Position numbers and translations under genes: made by a program | In this document: positions 42,806 to 51,203 of the stretch, one piece after another | Layout: every line of letters begins with the position of its first letter | Position numbering within the stretch: the stretch's first letter is position 1 | Assembly (NCBI GenBank): GCA_046482545.1 | Contig: JAWOEX010000032.1 | Location: 160,001 to 224,000 of the forward strand | Reading direction: 5' to 3' | DNA length: 64,000 bases | DNA from: Candidatus Thorarchaeota archaeon | GTDB lineage: Archaea; Asgardarchaeota; Thorarchaeia; Thorarchaeales; Thorarchaeaceae | Notes under the pieces: generated by a model | Seen by the model: only the letters and a program-made list of their open reading frames with translations | The model's database searches: none | Told to the model about the DNA's origin: nothing

Positions 42806-42878
42806 GAATTCAGCTGCAGTAGATGATGAACTACAGGGTGCCACTGCTCTCTACTCTCATTGTTTCGAGAATAGGCAA

Positions 42879-42933
42879 GTTTTACAAAAATCCTAAAAAG
42901 TCAGAGTGGAAAAGTGTAAAATATCTGCAAAAC
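42879..42933 (+). repeat. Solo left-end module of the non-coding element (copy 1)
   Basis: GTTTTACA-N39-TGCAAAAC containing AATCCTAAA and AAAGTGTAAAATAT, as at 43972 and 50922. Confidence 0.85.
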
Positions 42934-42951
42934 ACTACATTGACACGCCCA

Positions 42952-43004
42952 AGAACGCGAATTAGTGGCCAAGACATTTCTTGGTCACTTCGTTCTCCTT
43001 TTTT
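42952..43004 (+). terminator. Long hairpin followed by T-tract (terminator or small RNA)
   Basis: AGTGGCCAAGA/TCTTGGTCACT 11-bp stem (one G:U), outer AGAACG/CGTTCT stem, then T6. Confidence 0.55.
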
Positions 43005-43467
43005 CTAATTCAGCCAGAACTTGAAATGAGTATGTATCTTGCAGGATTAGTTTTCCAAATCCTTATCACGTTTGTAACGCATATGATGAAGCATGGATAC
43101 TGCTGATCGAGACACAAGCTTCGACGATGTTCTAGCTGAGGCTGCGAAAACAGGAACGAGACTGCGGTTTTACAGTCACAGTATGGCCATACTTGCCAAA
43201 GGTCTTGTTGCATTCATTGGCAAGAATAGGAATAAAACATAAAGAAAAGGGACCCCCATTTGAGTTTCTGCGCAAGGATTGCATAGTCAAAATCCAAATG
43301 CTAGGTGAGCAAGAAGTCATTTGCTGAAAGCCGTACGGTTGAATCGACTAACGCGAAACAAGAAGATATTCCTGCGCTTCAACTCCTATCCATTGACGCT
43401 ATTCCTATTCCTACATTCTTATGTATTGCAAAAATACCAAATGCACTATCGCACCCTCGGTGACATT

Positions 43468-43896
43468 ATGGATATGACCATTCTCAGAGAACTGCTTGAT
43501 AAGCTGCATATTGGAATCGTGCTTGTGGGTAATGATGATAAGATTCTCGCTTTCAACAAGATGGCAGGAGAGATGCTACAGCAAGATCCTGAGGATAGAA
43601 TTGGAACCTCTATCTTCAGATGTCATGGTGAACCCTCAGAAGAACCAGTAAGAAAGATGCTAAATGATATGAGAAATGGGAGGATGGAAAGCTATGAGGG
43701 GTGGGTCAATTTCCAAGGAAGAATACTGTTTGAGTACATTTATCCACTACCGGGTCCGGATGGTGAATGTCATCTCGTTGTCGAAGAACTCCACGATGCT
43801 GCGGAAAAAGTGGAGTATCTCAAGAGCATAGGAGAATGGGAATTAATTCATGTATCAGGAGTAGGCGAAAAAGCCCCTAGGCCCCCAGAAAGATGA
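43468..43896 (+). CDS. Stand-alone PAS-domain protein
   Basis: LLDKLHIGIVLV...ILAFNKMA...IGTSIFRCH; start placed at ATG 43468 after GGTGA RBS. Confidence 0.8.
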   Translation: MDMTILRELLDKLHIGIVLVGNDDKILAFNKMAGEMLQQDPEDRIGTSIFRCHGEPSEEPVRKMLNDMRNGRMESYEGWVNFQGRILFEYIYPLPGPDGECHLVVEELHDAAEKVEYLKSIGEWELIHVSGVGEKAPRPPER

Positions 43897-43971
43897 ATTT
43901 TTTTCCAAGAATCATAAGAAAGGATGTTGAACTGTCATTGACAATTCTAGCAATCAATTCAAGAGCTTTGT

Positions 43972-44530
43972 AAATCTTACAAAATCCTAAATGAATCAGC
44001 ACAGTAAAGTGTAAAATATCTGCAAGATGTCCTGTATGCCTTCTTATGACCAAAGATGAGGGAAGTTAATTAGGCCGAGTACGGGAGTCCGGTCTAGTAG
44101 GACTAGGGCAGTGGGCCACTCCCCCTGGGGAGAAGCGCCCAGCCCCGAAGGCTGTGAGGAAGACCCCGTCTTCTAAGCAGAAGTCCTTACTCTCCGAACG
44201 AGGGGCCCCATCAGGCCCTGGAGAGTCCGCGGCTGTTCACCTCGTCTGTAATGGACCTCCTCAGCGGTGGTGACAATGTTGAGGTCGGTGATCATGACCA
44301 CGCCGTGGCAAAAACTGTGGAAGGACTCGCTGTCGCCGGAGTGATGACCCGGGATGACGACAGGAGACGGAAGCCAGGATCGCGGGAGGAATCCTATTCC
44401 GGTGAACGCGGACAAAGCCCCTGCTGACTCAAGGGCCCATTGGGTAGCCTTGGGGGTGGTGACGCTGGCAGGGGAAGGGTGGAACACAGAAGTTTCACGC
44501 AGTTGCTACAACTGTAAGAAACAGGTTATC
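43972..44530 (+). ncRNA. Longest copy (copy 2) of a GC-rich structured non-coding element; ncRNA and/or non-autonomous mobile element
   Basis: Homologous to 50922-51203 and 49540-49774; many nested stems, GNRA loops; no conserved ORF. Confidence 0.65.
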
Positions 44531-46824
44531 GAGAATAATACCTTGACCCTATCATCCTTCTCGAAGCGTTTCCGTATGCTACCGACATTCGGCGAGTGTT
44601 GGTTATGGGTATAGATTTCGCCGTTAACGGAGGTCTCTTGAATACTCCACTCCTCGCTGAAGTAGAAGTAGATCCCCTCTGCATGATTCGTGGCTTTAGA
44701 AACCACTAAAGTCAGCTCATTTGAGTCAGCGTCCCACTTCTCGCTTTGAATATCACAGGCTCCTTGAGTGAAGTGCATGCTAGTCGCCAATAGAGACGGT
44801 CTATCTTGTGCTGGCTTTATGCTGTATAGTCTACAGGTATGCGGCTTGAGACTGGACACGCTGATTTTGTCTTCGACTTCTTCGACGTATTTCTCGTCCC
44901 AGAAACCGAATACATGGTGGGAGACTCCTTCTTCAAGGCCAAGATCTGTAAGATACACCTCAAGGTCAATAGGCTCCTCGCCAAGATTGAACAGCCCTAC
45001 AACAACCCACTCGCTGGTTTTGTTTTTAACAGGAAGAAAGAAAATATTGGGTTCTGGTTTAATCAGAGTATCCGGGGATAGGGCTCCCTCTGGATACACT
45101 GGAAGCAGCTTGTCTACAAGTCGAAGCCTCTCTTCGGAGACTTCCATCATCCGGTCGCTTAGAAGGAATGCCCCTCCACTAAGGGCAACAATTGATGCCC
45201 AGAGTCGTACCTCTTCAAGAGAGAGTTCGTTGTCTTCTTGCCGAACTAGCAAGCAGTCAGGATCGTTTATCCACCACCTATTGTGCAAAGGCGCCCTCGT
45301 TATGGTATTCACAGCGCATTCGTACACCCCGCCACCCCAATCAAGTCTCCAAGATGTGGCAATGTCTGTTCCAATTCGCATCGCATTTGTGATTCCAATG
45401 CACGGTCCCAGAGGGGCACCGCATCCGAGGATTAGAGAGTCTCCAACACTTTCGCGCACAGCTTCAATTCCGTTTCGGAAAGCTTGAGCACGTGTAACTG
45501 TTTCATCAAATCTTTTTGCTTCTTCTGTGGCATGATAGAGGAAATCAATCTTGAAGTACTCAAATCCTAAGGATTTCAGATGTTTGAACAATGATTTGAT
45601 ATGCTTGATTACGGCTGGATTTGAAAGGTCCAGCGCGTAATAGCTCCCAAGCCATAGCGGATTGTCATCGATTACTTTTGGCTCACCTTTCTTGGACGCA
45701 AGAAACCAGTCTGGATGCTGTTTGAAAAGGTCAGAATGCTCTGTAGCAATGAATGGTGCTGTCCAAATGCCTGCTTTGAAGCCTTTCTTCTCAATTTCTT
45801 CCTTCAGATAGTCCAAGCCATTTGGAAACCTATCGTTTGGTTGCCAATCTCCCACTGTTTTCTGGTACCCGTCATCAATTTGAATCCACTTTACGTAATC
45901 CGGGAATCTTTCTTTCAGGAATTGTGTGTTTTCCAGAATCTCCCCCTCTTCTGGCATGGTGTAATAGAAATACCATGAACACCATCCTACGGGTATTTCA
46001 TCGCACAAGACGGCATTCATCCGTCTAGCTGCAAGATCAGCATATTCCTGAAGGGATGCCAAGCCATCGGCTTTGATGATGACGACCAGTTCCTCTGAGA
46101 CAACCGCCTCGTCTGGAATCAATAGTGTACTATCGAGCTCACATGTTGCTGCCAGTCTCTCCAGCTGCTGTCTTCCGGCGTCAAATGAGATATTTGTCAG
46201 TTGTCTATCCATTGTACAGAATCCGATAAGGATGTTCGATTTATCGCTCCGATTTGTGAGAACGGAGTAGAAGTGACTGATATTCGACCCTTCTTGTAGT
46301 GGCTGAGCTCGGCTGAGCTCCCAAGAATGAAAACCATTTTGGAAGTATCTTAAATCTAACAAATCCACCCCTGTCAGGATTGTAGAAGATGTCCATAAGG
46401 GTGAAATCGAATCGAGTTCTAAATGCTTGCCAGATTTGTTGATTAGCTGCACCGTGAATGTAAATCCGCTTAGGCCATTAGATGCAATTACTTTGAAGCG
46501 CACCTCGTGTGACTGGACTGGATCCTGAAGAGAAAGAATGAGTACCCTATCTGCTTGACTCTGATTCTTTATGGTAAGTGTATCCATAGAGACGTATTTG
46601 AGTTGAGAGGAATTGATTATTCTCCCTTTCGTTGATATTTGAAATTGACCTTCTCGTAGATATTCTTCTCCCATGGGATTAAGAAGACTGAATGAACCGT
46701 TCTCTATATCCCATTCGAAAGCCATGTGTTGAGTACTTAGAGAAACCTTATGCTCAGATAAATCGACGCTGCTCCACTTCTCAGGGTCCAAGTGCTCTAC
46801 TCCTTCAAACTGTGTTGAATACAC
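44506..46824 (-). CDS. Alpha-galactosidase (GH36-like)
   Basis: GWCSWY, QIDDGYQ, RFPNGL, FKIDF, MRIGTD, NDPDC. Confidence 0.9.
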   Translation of the reverse strand: MYSTQFEGVEHLDPEKWSSVDLSEHKVSLSTQHMAFEWDIENGSFSLLNPMGEEYLREGQFQISTKGRIINSSQLKYVSMDTLTIKNQSQADRVLILSLQDPVQSHEVRFKVIASNGLSGFTFTVQLINKSGKHLELDSISPLWTSSTILTGVDLLDLRYFQNGFHSWELSRAQPLQEGSNISHFYSVLTNRSDKSNILIGFCTMDRQLTNISFDAGRQQLERLAATCELDSTLLIPDEAVVSEELVVIIKADGLASLQEYADLAARRMNAVLCDEIPVGWCSWYFYYTMPEEGEILENTQFLKERFPDYVKWIQIDDGYQKTVGDWQPNDRFPNGLDYLKEEIEKKGFKAGIWTAPFIATEHSDLFKQHPDWFLASKKGEPKVIDDNPLWLGSYYALDLSNPAVIKHIKSLFKHLKSLGFEYFKIDFLYHATEEAKRFDETVTRAQAFRNGIEAVRESVGDSLILGCGAPLGPCIGITNAMRIGTDIATSWRLDWGGGVYECAVNTITRAPLHNRWWINDPDCLLVRQEDNELSLEEVRLWASIVALSGGAFLLSDRMMEVSEERLRLVDKLLPVYPEGALSPDTLIKPEPNIFFLPVKNKTSEWVVVGLFNLGEEPIDLEVYLTDLGLEEGVSHHVFGFWDEKYVEEVEDKISVSSLKPHTCRLYSIKPAQDRPSLLATSMHFTQGACDIQSEKWDADSNELTLVVSKATNHAEGIYFYFSEEWSIQETSVNGEIYTHNQHSPNVGSIRKRFEKDDRVKVLFSITCFLQL

Positions 46825-46857
46825 TCCCTGATATGCTTTGCTTGAGAGTACTGATTA

Positions 46858-47430
46858 CTAGTCAGCGTATTTGTCACTCTCTATCTGTGCGGCCTTGTTC
46901 CTTGCTTTTTCTGCTTCATCATATTCGAAGAGCCGCTTGTGTGCTAGGGCTAGTAGCTCCCAGACTTCTTTGTCGTCAGGTTTCATATCTAAATAATGCT
47001 GACAGTACTCCTTTACCTTTTCCCAGTTATCCTTCCTTTCGTAGCACCGGGCTCCATAGTAAAGGGCTCTCTTGTGGTCCATACCCGGTTCAAGAAGGTC
47101 ATTCAATTCCTGCAGAGCCTCATCCCACTCCTCCCTTTCATAATGAACCATTGCCTTATCGAACTGAATCTCCATCTCCTGATATTGCGGCATTCTCCTG
47201 AATAGTGTAGTGATCATCCCAGATGTCACACAGCACACCAGTACTGTAGCTACTGTAACACTGACTCCCAGCAGGATTCCGGCATTGGGCAGTATGTCCC
47301 CTAGAAATCCTTGACCTACGAGCCACGCCAGCGTGATACCACCAATGAAAATCCCTGCAGCCACTAACAAAGAATAGCGTGTCCAGTTCTGATCCAGAAA
47401 CCCTTCATTGCTGTTTTCCAAATTGCACAC
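46858..47430 (-). CDS. Membrane-anchored TPR protein
   Basis: Two TMs followed by TPR-like helices. Confidence 0.75.
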   Translation of the reverse strand: MCNLENSNEGFLDQNWTRYSLLVAAGIFIGGITLAWLVGQGFLGDILPNAGILLGVSVTVATVLVCCVTSGMITTLFRRMPQYQEMEIQFDKAMVHYEREEWDEALQELNDLLEPGMDHKRALYYGARCYERKDNWEKVKEYCQHYLDMKPDDKEVWELLALAHKRLFEYDEAEKARNKAAQIESDKYAD

Positions 47431-47485
47431 CTACCGGAATTCCACTCCCGCTGTTAATATAGTTTTGAACTGAGTGTATCGTTTT

Positions 47486-48145
47486 CTAGTCATTTTCATT
47501 AATGCTGTTATCAGGATTGTTGAGGAGATCTGAATCCTTCTTTTCTTGTTCATATTTCTCATGGTCCTGTTCGGCTTTTAGCCTGTCTTTAGCGACGGCA
47601 AGCCACTGATTGACATGTGAAGAAAGTGATGGGTCTAGCTCCAAGGCCATTTCAGCATAAGCGATTGCGTGCTCATTCTCACGTTCAATGAAATGGGCAT
47701 TGGCCTTGTTATAGAGTGCTTCAGCATAGTTAGGCCGAAGAGCAACAGCCTTGGTATATGCTTCAATTGCTTTCTGCCCCTCAGTCAATCTTGAGTAAGT
47801 ATTGCCTAGGTTATTCCAGGCTTCGGCATCTTCTGTATCCAACTCCAAGGCCTTTTCATAGCATTCCTTGGCCTTCTTGAAATCACCGAGCTCATATAGC
47901 ACGTTTCCCTTGTTAAACCAGATTTCAAACACCTGATTGTCAATTGCAAGAGCTTCATCATAGGCTTCCTCTGCTTCATCAAGCTTACCTGCTCTCGCAA
48001 GGGCAATACCTAGGTTGTACCAGCCCTCTAAGGAATCTGGATGCTTTCCAACCAGCTCTTTCAAAAAATCAATCGCTTTCTTGTATACGCCTGAATTGAT
48101 GAGTCTGATAGCCTCTGCTATTGAATCCGCTACTTCTTCACTCAT
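47486..48145 (-). CDS. Tetratricopeptide repeat protein
   Basis: WYNLG, WFNKG, WNNLG, LYNKA repeats. Confidence 0.93.
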   Translation of the reverse strand: MSEEVADSIAEAIRLINSGVYKKAIDFLKELVGKHPDSLEGWYNLGIALARAGKLDEAEEAYDEALAIDNQVFEIWFNKGNVLYELGDFKKAKECYEKALELDTEDAEAWNNLGNTYSRLTEGQKAIEAYTKAVALRPNYAEALYNKANAHFIERENEHAIAYAEMALELDPSLSSHVNQWLAVAKDRLKAEQDHEKYEQEKKDSDLLNNPDNSINEND

Positions 48146-48195
48146 GCAGTATCACATCTGCTTCAATCAGTTAAAGCCTGTGCTTTGAATTCCTT

Positions 48196-48624
48196 TCACT
48201 CGGGACTGCTGGTTGTTTGACGTCCGATAATGCTTAGTATGATGCCAATCCAGCCAATTGACTGTGCAATCAATAGAAGAAAATCAACGAGAATGCCCAA
48301 CCCAGAGAAGTAGACTGTCTTGCCCAATTCGATAATGAGTCCTATCAATCCCAATCCGGCTGCAATGCCAATGATGAACTTGCCTGTACCAACTCTTGCT
48401 GTCGTAAGAAGATAGCTGCCAATGATTACTCCGATACCGCCAAGACCAGCTATGAAGGTTAACACAAAAAGGAGGATATCCACGACCCATACTATATTCT
48501 GCAATTCTGGTATGGTATGGAGTTCTTCCAGCATACCGAAGTAACCTATGCTACCGGTAGCACTTGTGATGATAAGCAACAATCCACCAAGAAGACATAG
48601 AACAAATGATTTCTTGTTTTCCAT
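48196..48624 (-). CDS. Four-TM membrane protein
   Basis: Gly-rich hydrophobic helices. Confidence 0.75.
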   Translation of the reverse strand: MENKKSFVLCLLGGLLLIITSATGSIGYFGMLEELHTIPELQNIVWVVDILLFVLTFIAGLGGIGVIIGSYLLTTARVGTGKFIIGIAAGLGLIGLIIELGKTVYFSGLGILVDFLLLIAQSIGWIGIILSIIGRQTTSSPE

Positions 48625-48691
48625 GAGAATACCTTATCTATATTCCATTAAACGGCCCTTTATGTATTCCCCTTCTCTACCGAGCAGAATG

Positions 48692-49537
48692 CTATTGCAG
48701 TTCTATTGCAACTGGTCGTCGTCTACGGAAGATGCTTACCGTTTCATATCCGCTCTCTCTAAGTATTTTCAATGCTTTGTGAATCTCGTAGCCAACGTGT
48801 TGTGGTAAATGAGCATCTGAGCCAACTATTACGATTTCCACTCCCTCATCGTGTAGGCATTGTATGAACTCTTTCGTGGGCATAGTATCGTCAAGACCCG
48901 TCCTAAATGAAGATGTGTTAATCTCAAAACCGACATTTGCTTTGTACATGGTACTGGCAATCTCAGAGACATACTGTTTCCACAGGGTGCGCACTTCTTC
49001 TCCGTAGAATCGTTCTCCATACCGCCGATAGATGTCGATATGAGCGATGGCATCGAAAAAGCCTGATCTGATGCAATCGACCAGTCTCCCGTAATATAGT
49101 TCACCCAGTTCATCGACCTTGTATTTGCTAAAGATTCCTGTAGCCTCATCTTCAAGGGATAATGCTTTGTGTTCTAACAGATGAGTTGCGCCTAAGACAT
49201 AATCCCAGTCAAACGTGTGAAAATCCTGAGGCAGATTGCTTTCAAACCCCGAATAGTAGTCTATCTCGACGCCTAGACGAACTTCCAATCCCTTTTCTTG
49301 GTAAATTTGAGCTGCTTCATTGATAGTCTCTACATATGATCCAAGCCAAGCGTTCTCCGTTGTTGATATCTCATCATTGCCAACTCTTACAACTCCATCG
49401 TTTCTGAATGGATCTGTATCAACATGAGTCGTAAAGCATATGTGGTGAAGTCCTTTTCCCACCGCAGCATCACAGAATTCATCAACGGAACCTTTTGCAT
49501 CAATGGAAAAGTTCGGGTGGATATGATAATCGAGCAT
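48692..49537 (-). CDS. PHP-family histidinol-phosphatase (HisJ-like)
   Basis: DYHIH, FTTH, GVEIDY, AHID, EINTS, GSDAH. Confidence 0.9.
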   Translation of the reverse strand: MLDYHIHPNFSIDAKGSVDEFCDAAVGKGLHHICFTTHVDTDPFRNDGVVRVGNDEISTTENAWLGSYVETINEAAQIYQEKGLEVRLGVEIDYYSGFESNLPQDFHTFDWDYVLGATHLLEHKALSLEDEATGIFSKYKVDELGELYYGRLVDCIRSGFFDAIAHIDIYRRYGERFYGEEVRTLWKQYVSEIASTMYKANVGFEINTSSFRTGLDDTMPTKEFIQCLHDEGVEIVIVGSDAHLPQHVGYEIHKALKILRESGYETVSIFRRRRPVAIELQ

Positions 49538-49539
49538 AT

Positions 49540-49774
49540 ATAACCTGTTTCTCGCTGTTGAGTGAACCTAGCTGAATAAAACTTCTGTGTTCCACCCTTC
49601 CTCAGCCAGTGTCGCCGCCCCCAAGGTACCCGTACCCCTTCGAGCTAGCACTGGCTTTGCCCATATTTACTGGAATTGGATTCCTCCTGCGGTCCTGGCT
49701 TCTGTTTCCTGTCGTTATCCTGCGTCATCACTCCCGGCGACAGTGAGTTCTTCCACGGAGGGAGCATGATTACC
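49540..49774 (-). repeat. Inverted, 5'-truncated, more diverged copy (copy 3) of the non-coding element
   Basis: Reverse complement aligns to ~44287-44529 including GGAAGGGTGGAACACAGAAGT and AGAAACAGGTTAT. Confidence 0.9.
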
Positions 49775-49787
49775 CATTTCAGCCCTG

Positions 49788-50729
49788 CTACCGTTGCAAT
49801 CGCTTGAATACTTCATTGGCTATGAATACCTCTGTTCCAGCCAATCCTACCGAACAGAAGAGTGTAATATCTTGGTCGGATTCACGTCCCGGTATTTTGC
49901 CTGTTACAATGTTGCAAAGTTTCAGGATTCTTTTTCGGTGTTCAGTATTAGATAGGAAGTACGGCCTTGTATAGTTACCATAGCTATCCATTTGGGCTAT
50001 CGAATCAGTAACAATGACTTGGCTCTTATTGGCGACTCCAACCTCTATCTCATTCGTGCCAGCCAAGTTCGGACCGAGTGTTGTCACGTGCATTCCTGGT
50101 TCTAGTAACTCAGAATCGTATACTGGCGTCTTGCTGCGGGTAGCTGAAATTACTATATCTGCACCAGTAATTGCGTCATCAGGAGATTCTACCGGTTTTA
50201 CTGTTAGATTCAATTTCTGACTCATCTCCTCAGCGAAAGCTTCTCTGTGAGCCTCGGTTGGGCTGTAAACACGAACTTCCTTGAGATTTCGAACGATGTT
50301 GGTAGCTTCGAGTTGCGATCTTGCCTGGGTCCCTGAACCAATCATGGCGAGAGTATCTGAGTCTGGTCTGGATAGATACTTAATCGCAACGCCACCAATC
50401 CCTCCAGTGCGAATCACTCCCACTCTAGTACCACAAATAACTCCTTTTAGTACTCCACTGTCCCCATCATAACAAACTACCAGCTGAGTATGCCCGGGTT
50501 CATCTTTGGGAAAGGTTTCGTATATCCGAAACCCGGCTGCCTTTTCTCTCCCTGTTGAGGCTCCTACAGTAAATACAAGGGAACCTTTACCCGCTTCAAC
50601 CGTGAAACGTGGTGGTGCATTGAGAGTTCCCTTGCCATGTTCGGTCATTGCGTCTTCCATCTTGGTGACTGCATCTTGCATATCGAGAACTTTGTCAACC
50701 TGTTCGTCGTCAATAACTGGGAATTTCAT
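49788..50729 (-). CDS. Ornithine cyclodeaminase/mu-crystallin family protein
   Basis: RTGGIGG, GSGTQA, GRESDQDITLFCSVGLAG. Confidence 0.9.
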   Translation of the reverse strand: MKFPVIDDEQVDKVLDMQDAVTKMEDAMTEHGKGTLNAPPRFTVEAGKGSLVFTVGASTGREKAAGFRIYETFPKDEPGHTQLVVCYDGDSGVLKGVICGTRVGVIRTGGIGGVAIKYLSRPDSDTLAMIGSGTQARSQLEATNIVRNLKEVRVYSPTEAHREAFAEEMSQKLNLTVKPVESPDDAITGADIVISATRSKTPVYDSELLEPGMHVTTLGPNLAGTNEIEVGVANKSQVIVTDSIAQMDSYGNYTRPYFLSNTEHRKRILKLCNIVTGKIPGRESDQDITLFCSVGLAGTEVFIANEVFKRLQR

Positions 50730-50921
50730 AGAAATAAATTGGAGTTTTATATGTTATAATTATAGTGGGTAAAAATATTCTATATAGCTCCCAAAAATCA
50801 AAATCATCTCTCCTTTATAATGGCAACTTTCATTGTGAACTGCTCGCCAAAGTTAATTATCTACAATGCATCTTAATATGAGATTACTCAGAGTGGTTCT
50901 AGGTCAATTCAGGAGTAATCA

Positions 50922-51203
50922 AAATCTTACAGAATCCTAAAAAAATCAGAGTAGAAAAGTGTAAAATATTTGTAAGATTTCCCGTAAGGTTTCTTATCAC
51001 CCACACGGGGGAGTTTATGAGGCCCAGTACAGGACCACGGTTCAGTAGGACTAGGCAAGTGGGCTAGTATTATACACGACGGGCGCGGCCGAAGCCCCTG
51101 CTGACTCAAGGGCCTACGGGTACCTTGGGAGGCGACGCTGGCAGAGGAAGGGTGGAACACAGAAGTTTCACGCAGTTGCTACAACTGTAAGAAACGGGTT
51201 ATC
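50922..51203 (+). mobile_element. Internally deleted copy (copy 4) of the non-coding element, both ends retained
   Basis: Left part aligns to 43972-44117, right part to ~44406-44530; last 58 nt differ from copy 2 at one position. Confidence 0.7.

What the first reader, a model, noticed from the sequence alone, without database searches (positions are those of the whole stretch)
42879..51203. Unannotated non-coding element family: four related pieces in 8.3 kb with no transposase
Seen: copy 2 (43972-44530, +) is the longest. Copy 4 (50922-51203, +) keeps both ends but lacks roughly 44118-44405. Copy 3 (49540-49774, -) has only the right ~235 bp. Copy 1 (42879-42933) has only the left module. 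Copies 2 and 4 share GGAAGGGTGGAACACAGAAGTTTCACGCAGTTGCTACAACTGTAAGAAAC[A/G]GGTTATC (57/58). Copies 2-4 all end sharply at AGAAACRGGTTAT. I see no target-site duplication and no coding capacity conserved across copies. Established: retained ends with an internal deletion is typical of non-autonomous elements mobilised in trans. Inference: this is a mobile, probably RNA-encoding element that I cannot match to a family I recognise. It is the best candidate here for an undescribed system.
Basis: partly seen in the sequence, partly recalled or inferred. Interest (0 to 1): 0.88.

Follow-up and report, generated by a model that had tools for sequence, protein, structure and literature searches.

The report
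Miniature copies of Asgard Cas1-TnpB transposon
The four repeats are gene-less miniature copies of an Asgard-archaeal jumping element that pairs a giant Cas1-like integrase with an RNA-guided TnpB nuclease; they keep the element's ends and guide-RNA scaffold, sit in 6-bp target duplications, and one pair has moved a host gene, which gives exact ends and empty sites for testing this predicted but apparently untested element.

Summary
The repeats are real, part of a family of about 100 pieces (37 near full length, ~560 bp; 1.1% of this Thorarchaeota-related genome). Each is an internal deletion of an ~8.3-kb element: left end, giant Cas1/Cas4-like/RecA-like gene (aCas1), divergent tnpB, omegaRNA, right end. 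Copy 2 still encodes a TnpB C-terminal remnant. Copy 1 is not a lone relic: with copy 2 it bounds a 1,664-bp composite carrying a PAS gene, absent in another strain. The parent (aCas1-TnpB) was described computationally (Altae-Tran 2023; Makarova 2020). This scan had already noted omegaRNA relics in this genome and aCas1-TnpB elements in other genomes. Added here: the miniature family is tied to aCas1 ends and a defined target, it captures host DNA, related copies tend to reuse the same target hexamer, and tnpB leaders carry a short guide-like unit matching their own promoter (18/19). aCas1 as the transposase is inferred, not shown. New variant of a known kind.

The parts
42865..42870 (+). Left copy of the 6-bp target duplication (TCGAGA) of the 1,664-bp composite; the direct repeat extends to 9 bp (42865-42873)
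   Evidence: empty site in strain X3 skips 42867->44532
42871..42933 (+). Copy 1: outer left end of the composite (7-nt variable spacer ATAGGCA, then the conserved AT-rich module with repeated TGTAA/TTACA motifs)
   Evidence: 84% to the left end of autonomous element E1
43321..43896 (+). Cargo gene carried in the composite: PAS-domain protein (likely start 43441 or 43468)
   Evidence: Pfam PAS_10 E 6e-10; absent at the orthologous site in two congeners and strain X3
43959..43964 (+). Older target hexamer (TCAAGA) before copy 2's own left end
   Evidence: one mismatch to the right-hand TCGAGA, as expected if the composite later moved as a unit (inference)
43965..44099 (+). Copy 2 left end (spacer GCTTTGTA plus conserved module and linker, 34% GC)
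44100..44340 (+). Frameshifted remnant of the tnpB 3' end (TnpB C-terminal tail), overlapping the RNA scaffold
   Evidence: tblastn of TnpB E1/E2: 53-79% identity, E 2e-17
44100..44528 (+). Predicted omegaRNA scaffold and right end (60% GC), ending in a terminal hairpin and GAAACAGGTTA; the GTTCACTCA loop is lost in this copy
   Evidence: 80% over 449 nt to the 3' end of element E1; 22 of 45 predicted pairs with compensatory changes in 27 sequences
44529..44534 (+). Right copy of the target duplication (TCGAGA); predicted start of the flank-derived guide
   Evidence: guide start is inference
49541..49797 (-). Copy 3: 3' half of the scaffold and right end, left part lost; keeps the GTTCACTCA loop; abuts the start codon of a PHP-domain gene; no matching duplication
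   Evidence: model 288-553; absent in two congeners, present in strain X3
50909..50914 (+). Left hexamer of copy 4 (TCAGGA; one mismatch to the right hexamer)
50915..51201 (+). Copy 4: both ends with an internal deletion of model positions 175-431, joined at a CGCGG-C-AAAGC-like microhomology (51084-51096); its terminal TTA supplies the stop codon of the truncated MFS gene
   Evidence: the same deletion is seen on contig C10
51202..51207 (+). Right hexamer of copy 4 (TCTGGA)

Best explanation
The four pieces are non-autonomous miniature derivatives of the Thorarchaeota aCas1-TnpB transposon. SHOWN: the parent (for example 8,302 and 8,232 bp in this genome) is left end - giant gene of 1,400-1,960 aa (Cas1 catalytic helical domain, Cas4-like PD-(D/E)xK domain, RecA-fold domain) - divergent tnpB with a rearranged RuvC-II site - structured RNA overlapping the tnpB tail - right end. 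Internal deletion leaves ~560-bp elements with both ends and the RNA scaffold. They insert at TCNNGA and duplicate these 6 bp, and two ends can carry host DNA between them (the PAS gene here). INFERRED: aCas1 binds the repeated TGTAA/TTACA motifs at both ends and integrates them by staggered strand transfer, as casposases do, acting in trans on the minis. The kept scaffold gives each mini an omegaRNA whose guide is its own right flank, loadable by TnpB from the autonomous copies. Related copies tend to reuse the same hexamer, so target choice may involve pairing with a hexamer carried from the previous site.
For: Six TnpB genes lie directly upstream of family hits that start at model position 127-128. 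Copy 2 matches the parent's 3' end (80% over 449 nt) and left end (77-84%). Both complete parents are bounded by the same ends and by identical hexamers, TCAGGA and TCTGGA, and hold only aCas1, tnpB and one small ORF. Duplication exact in 17/33 full copies against a shuffled mean of 3.2 and a maximum of 10 in 20,000. Removing an element plus one hexamer gives gapless alignments to orthologous genes at four other loci, and the central dinucleotide is present in at least one ortholog at each. Strain X3 has an 8-kb contig that skips exactly 1,664 bp here. The aCas1 N-terminal model's top 12 structural matches are all Cas1 or casposase, Z 8.4-12.3, with E79, H174 and D181/D184 conserved. aCas1 and tnpB are head-to-head in 19 of 27 family loci. 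RNA covariation. Literature: PMC10691335.
Against: No biochemical test exists here; the role of aCas1 rests on gene content and fold. The model has only the helical Cas1 domain and lacks the N-terminal beta domain, and Foldseek's best E was only 0.01. Terminal inverted repeats are short and imperfect, with a variable 7-8-nt spacer at the left end. No circle or joined-end intermediate was seen (contigs only). The motif before the leader's self-target (YTTNAT) is not found in register at insertion sites, so cutting of empty sites by TnpB is unsupported. An IS4/IS5-type DDE element in the genome has a TCTGTAAAAT terminal motif similar to the end motifs.
Confidence: 0.8

Rival explanations
1. Same origin (tnpB-element remnants), but moved in trans by an ordinary transposase, either the resident IS4/IS5-type DDE enzyme or a Y1 TnpA; aCas1 is cargo or serves another role.
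For: Four intact-looking DDE_Tnp_1 genes are in the genome, and their TIR (GGCTCTGTAAAATAA) resembles the end motifs. One Y1 tnpA fragment exists. TnpB is usually tied to Y1 or serine TnpA (PMC10691335).
Against: The DDE element makes a 9-bp duplication and its motif faces the opposite way relative to the end. HUH/Y1 transposition leaves no duplication (established knowledge), and the Y1 gene is fused to host DNA without these ends. No serine or tyrosine recombinase or IS110 was found in this 98.9% complete genome. Both complete elements carry aCas1.
Confidence: 0.1
2. Homology- or RNA-guided targeting: the hexamer from the donor site (as a sticky DNA end, or as the seed of the TnpB-omegaRNA guide) directs aCas1 to a matching site, so each lineage remembers its target.
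For: Left ends with at least 80% identical spacers share the central dinucleotide in 62% of pairs against a 17% baseline; left cores at least 90% alike share it in 49%. 38 of 54 identical-spacer pairs share the whole hexamer. Duplications of 9-12 bp occur at several sites. aCas1 has a RecA-fold domain. Most minis keep the full scaffold.
Against: The signal is dominated by one lineage (ATAGGCA/TCAAGA, 8 of 9). On a tree of element bodies only the AA label clusters (7 changes against 11.4 shuffled), and all labels together do not (19 against 20.4). Right flanks of sister copies are not alike beyond the hexamer. Spacer-to-flank similarity is not significant (p 0.06). Different aCas1 variants with different preferences could give the same pattern.
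Confidence: 0.3
3. A domesticated host non-coding RNA family or an undescribed stand-alone RNA element, unrelated to any protein-coding transposon.
For: Structured RNA with covariation; many divergent copies (70-90% identity); no Rfam hit.
Against: Direct homology to tnpB 3' ends and to aCas1-element left ends; insertions that break host genes; empty sites in congeners and in another strain.
Confidence: 0.03

Closest known systems
Asgard aCas1-TnpB loci (Cas1H-Asgard-1/-2; Altae-Tran et al. 2023, PMC10691335; aCas1 of Makarova et al. 2020, CRISPR J 3:156, not held, cited from the former and from PMC8730458)
   Same: Asgard host; tnpB next to a large Cas1 homolog; locus flanked by repeats; GTTCACTCA motif downstream of tnpB; aCas1 proposed as transposase.
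   Different: The text I could read gives no exact ends, target, duplication length, gene-less derivatives or cargo capture. It proposed a hypervariable region before GTTCACTCA as the guide; here that motif is the loop of the terminal hairpin, and the likely guide is the flank after GGTTA (inference).
PATE-like omegaRNA-bearing gene-less derivatives of IS200/IS605 (Meers et al., bioRxiv 10.1101/2023.03.14.532601)
   Same: Gene-less, keep both ends and the omegaRNA, need transposase and TnpB in trans.
   Different: PATEs are moved by Y1 TnpA through subterminal hairpins without target duplication; these make a 6-bp duplication and their parent encodes aCas1.
Casposons (Cas1 casposase; reviewed in PMC6452270)
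   Same: Cas1-fold integrase, target preference, target-site duplication.
   Different: No DNA polymerase in the element; carries TnpB and omegaRNA; ends asymmetric; the integrase is a giant fusion lacking the Cas1 N-terminal beta domain.
MITEs of DDE insertion sequences
   Same: Short, high-copy, non-coding, flanked by a target duplication, can form composites.
   Different: Only imperfect short inverted motifs; the body is a TnpB guide-RNA scaffold; no cognate DDE transposase identified.

Membership tests
Asgard aCas1-TnpB element (parent of the minis) | Asgard host | tested here: met
   Closest named relatives of the giant protein are Ca. Thorarchaeota; the profile hits 28/43 genomes of the family and 1 of 157 others in the phylum sample
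Asgard aCas1-TnpB element (parent of the minis) | Large Cas1 homolog next to tnpB | tested here: met
   Cas1 fold; head-to-head with tnpB in 19/27 loci; in both complete elements
Asgard aCas1-TnpB element (parent of the minis) | Locus flanked by repeats | tested here: met
   6-bp duplications at E1 and E2 and at the minis
Asgard aCas1-TnpB element (parent of the minis) | GTTCACTCA motif downstream of tnpB | tested here: met
   Present in E1, E2 and window copy 3; lost in 50 of 74 right ends, including copies 2 and 4
Asgard aCas1-TnpB element (parent of the minis) | TnpB falls in clade Cas1H-Asgard-1 or -2; domain order as in Makarova 2020 | not testable with these tools
   Supplements and the 2020 paper are not held
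Asgard aCas1-TnpB element (parent of the minis) | aCas1 catalyses transposition | not testable with these tools
   Needs biochemistry; only catalytic-type residues and gene content were checked
TnpB omegaRNA | Structured RNA overlapping the tnpB 3' end and running to the right end | tested here: met
TnpB omegaRNA | Expressed and bound by TnpB | tested here: inconclusive
   Contigs from RNA libraries cover the element deeply, but DNA runs show a similar multi-copy enrichment
IS200/IS605 PATE | Gene-less with both ends and omegaRNA | tested here: met
IS200/IS605 PATE | Y1 TnpA parent and no target duplication | tested here: not met
   6-bp duplication; the parents carry no Y1 gene
IS607 | Serine-recombinase TnpA, no target duplication | tested here: not met
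   Duplication present; no PF00239 match in the genome
Casposon | Cas1-family integrase and target duplication | tested here: met
Casposon | Family B DNA polymerase inside the element | tested here: not met
   E1 and E2 hold none; the genome's PolB genes lie on another contig
TnpB with rearranged RuvC-II | Canonical Glu replaced by Gly, alternative Glu before the zinc finger, RuvC-I and -III Asp intact | tested here: met
   GIDLG, IGRL, E[SN]WTS and NAD[RK]N in all five TnpBs; type described in PMC10691335
Any Rfam 15 family | Reaches the gathering score | tested here: not met

The most novel reading that the evidence does not exclude
A polymerase-less Cas1 transposon whose integrase (Cas1 + Cas4-like + RecA-like) chooses targets by homology to a hexamer carried from the previous site, possibly read through the TnpB-omegaRNA seed. 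A separate crRNA-like leader RNA would swap into the omegaRNA's terminal hairpin to make TnpB repress its own promoter. That would be a Cas1 integrase and a Cas12 ancestor with a split guide working together outside CRISPR.
Probability: 0.25. Interest if true: 0.85.

Novelty: new variant of a known kind. Interest (0 to 1): 0.52.

Why it matters
aCas1-TnpB elements were predicted to be a new transposon class joining relatives of both the CRISPR integrase (Cas1) and the Cas12 ancestor (TnpB), and I found no experimental test in the papers searched. This family supplies what a test needs: exact ends, a 6-bp TCNNGA duplication checked against empty alleles, a minimal donor of ~560 bp (down to ~210-290 bp), two intact parents in the same genome, and evidence of recent movement with host cargo. 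It also shows these elements reshape Thorarchaeota genomes: about 1% of the DNA, broken genes, and a stop codon supplied to a neighbour. If target memory or the leader guide swap holds, it bears on how guided integration and split guides arose.

Tried and rejected
Rfam: nothing. Pfam, NCBIfam and a PDB sequence search did not recognise the giant protein; only the fold searches did. No tyrosine recombinase, serine resolvase, IS110, rve, IS630 or Mutator transposase found in this genome (98.9% complete, so absence is not proven). The IS4/IS5-type element has different ends and a 9-bp duplication. A link to Fanzors was considered from the RuvC-II rearrangement, but the PDB sequence search returned only TnpB/Cas12f-type hits and no tree was built. 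A left-end pattern scan of metagenome contigs found nothing. Expression: RNA-library contigs are deep over the element (231 and 502 against 0-5 in flanks), but DNA runs are enriched similarly (345 against ~8; 997 against ~14), so transcription is not shown. Single-sequence folds were weak (z -1.9 and -1.0). An element-carried core exchanged at integration was rejected because the hexamer is present in empty orthologous sites. Copies 3 and 4 with the ornithine cyclodeaminase gene between them are missing in two congeners, but have no matching duplication, so I do not call them a composite. Two flank searches found no ortholog. Makarova 2020 and Hickman 2015 were not held.
Full report
VERDICT. 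The repeats are real and mobile. They are gene-less miniature derivatives of the Asgard aCas1-TnpB element, a class predicted by computation and, in the papers I could search, not tested.

OBSERVATION. The window is G000:C22:160001-224000. An iterated profile of 553 positions finds 103 pieces in the 3.05-Mb genome, 37 near full length, 33.5 kb in all. The family is found in 17 of 24 family-level relatives and in none of 16 more distant genomes searched. The closest named relatives of the associated giant protein are Ca. Thorarchaeota.

WHAT THE BODY IS. Six TnpB genes (PF07282) sit directly upstream of family hits that begin at model position 127-128. So positions ~127-553 are the tnpB 3' end, guide-RNA scaffold and right end. 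Copy 2 is 80% identical over 449 nt to the 3' end of an intact element and still encodes a frameshifted TnpB tail at 44100-44340 (E 2e-17). An alignment of 27 sequences from several genera folds on the tnpB strand with 22 of 45 pairs showing compensatory change. The TnpBs (544-612 aa) have intact RuvC-I and -III aspartates and the rearranged RuvC-II (Gly for Glu, alternative Glu in E[SN]WTS), a form predicted to be active in PMC10691335.

ENDS AND TARGET. Moving the left boundary 7-8 nt outward shows TCNNGA at both junctions. The two hexamers are identical in 17 of 33 full copies, against a shuffled mean of 3.2 and a maximum of 10 in 20,000; 28 such pairs were found in three genomes. The duplication comes from the target: removing an element plus one hexamer gives gapless alignments to orthologous genes at four loci, with the same central dinucleotide in at least one ortholog at each, and the same TCAGGA at a 94-96% identical locus. 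The ends are asymmetric: an AT-rich left module with repeated TGTAA/TTACA motifs, and a right end TGTAAGAAACAGGTTA that forms a short imperfect inverted repeat with it.

THE WINDOW. Copy 1's hexamer (TCGAGA, 42865) is repeated after copy 2 (44529), as part of a 9-bp repeat. The 1,664 bp between hold copy 1, a PAS-domain gene and copy 2. Two congeners lack this block, and a contig of another strain skips 42867->44532 exactly. Copy 1 is therefore the outer left end of a composite that moved host DNA. Copy 4 has lost model positions 175-431 at a microhomology, as has a copy on C10. Copies 3 and 4, with a cyclodeaminase gene between them, are absent in the congeners but present in the other strain, and lack a matching duplication.

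THE PARENT. Two complete elements, E1 (C28, 8,302 bp, TCAGGA) and E2 (C20, 8,232 bp, TCTGGA), have the same ends and hold only a giant gene, a divergent tnpB and one small ORF. The giant (1,400-1,960 aa) has no Pfam or NCBIfam match, occurs in 53 of 86 family genomes, and is head-to-head with tnpB in 19 of 27 loci. Its first ~245 residues fold as the Cas1 catalytic helical domain: the top 12 of 48,161 chains are Cas1 or casposase, Z 8.4-12.3, and Foldseek agrees weakly (best E 0.01). E79, D181 and D184 are invariant and H174 nearly so. A PD-(D/E)xK domain follows (motif; Cas4 at Z 7.9), then a RecA/RAD51-fold domain with a degenerate P-loop (Z ~10). This fits the aCas1-TnpB loci of Altae-Tran et al. 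2023, who call aCas1 the likely transposase and name a GTTCACTCA motif downstream of tnpB. That motif is the loop of the terminal hairpin here. The 2020 aCas1 paper was not held.

MECHANISM. Shown: deletion origin, ends, 6-bp duplication, empty alleles, cargo capture. Inferred (about 0.8): aCas1 integrates both ends by staggered strand transfer, as casposases do, and serves the minis in trans. Inferred: each mini can make an omegaRNA with a flank-derived guide, as proposed for PATEs. Expression was not shown. Other mobilisers were sought: no serine or tyrosine recombinase, IS110, rve, IS630 or Mutator match; one Y1 fragment without these ends; and an IS4/IS5-type element with a similar motif but opposite geometry and a 9-bp duplication.

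TWO ODD FEATURES. (1) Target memory. Left ends with near-identical spacers share the central dinucleotide in 62% of pairs against 17%, and 38 of 54 identical-spacer pairs share the hexamer at unrelated loci. One lineage dominates this signal, the tree of element bodies supports it only for the AA label, and sister copies' right flanks are not alike beyond the hexamer. It is a lead, not a result. (2) Leader guide. In 18 of 19 tnpB leaders a unit ending like the right end is followed by 11-15 nt that match exactly a TATA-like site ~95 nt upstream; the cross-element control averages 4.2 nt. The unit can pair with the terminal hairpin through the GTTCACTC loop (-26.8 against -13.2 kcal/mol for the hairpin). 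Copies 2 and 4, and 50 of 74 right ends, have lost that loop. The motif before the self-target (YTTNAT) is not in register at insertion sites, so the TAM is unresolved. A simple tandem promoter duplication is not excluded.

EARLIER SCAN NOTES. Follow-ups in this genome called similar pieces omegaRNA relics of IS200/IS605 type, first readers noted the giant gene, the 6-bp repeats and the leader unit, and follow-ups in other genomes named aCas1-TnpB. I tested these points independently as cited above.

SCORE. The parent kind is known and gene-less derivatives are expected, but the minis fail the defining tests for PATEs, IS607 and casposons, and they make a predicted Cas1 transposon directly testable. 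New variant of a known kind; interest 0.52.

Noticed in passing
L035:2203-2400 and L036:2333-2560 (tnpB leaders, read on the tnpB strand); also L040-L068: A ~95-nt unit (hairpin, GAGTGAACTC, right-end-like GGT[TC]AG) is followed by 11-15 nt matching its own upstream TATA site in 18/19 loci (control 4.2 nt). Candidate crRNA-like self-repression guide that pairs with the omegaRNA loop.
   Followed up: partly
L045, L048, L051, L053, L057 (ORF divergent from aCas1): In five loci the tnpB position holds a different conserved ORF (at least 380-457 aa, cut by the locus edge) with no tblastn match to these TnpBs. Possibly a larger second nuclease group or another partner.
   Followed up: no
L036:6824-7444 (-); also L041-L046, L060: A conserved ~205-235-aa acidic ORF with no Pfam match converges on aCas1 inside E2-type elements.
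   Followed up: no
L037:14200-14320: Element E3's right end runs into a reverse-oriented tRNA-like sequence; its ends differ from this family's and were not fixed.
   Followed up: no
L039 (G000 C34:112500-116317): tnpB with an intact leader and scaffold lies behind two genes that look by eye like an AbiEi/AbiEii toxin-antitoxin pair, instead of aCas1.
   Followed up: no
G000 C4:40640-41625, C9:315385-316370, C29, C18: A ~990-bp IS4/IS5-type element with a 15-bp TIR whose TCTGTAAAAT motif resembles the aCas1-element end motifs; 9-bp duplication at the C9 copy.
   Followed up: partly
window 49535-49545, 51197-51201, 44506-44534: Right ends sit at gene borders: copy 3 abuts the PHP gene's start codon, copy 4 truncates the MFS gene and supplies its stop, and the composite cuts into the 3' end of the alpha-galactosidase-like gene.
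   Followed up: partly
L055:6140-7048 (-): A PIWI/Argonaute-like ORF (by eye) lies next to an aCas1 gene in a relative.
   Followed up: no
insertion sites, genome-wide: Position -3 before TCNNGA is never T (0 of 68 against 29% background), while the element's own right end has T there; the bias is one-sided and unexplained.
   Followed up: partly
G000 whole genome: No tyrosine recombinase (PF00589) was found, although all 14 control genomes have one.
   Followed up: no
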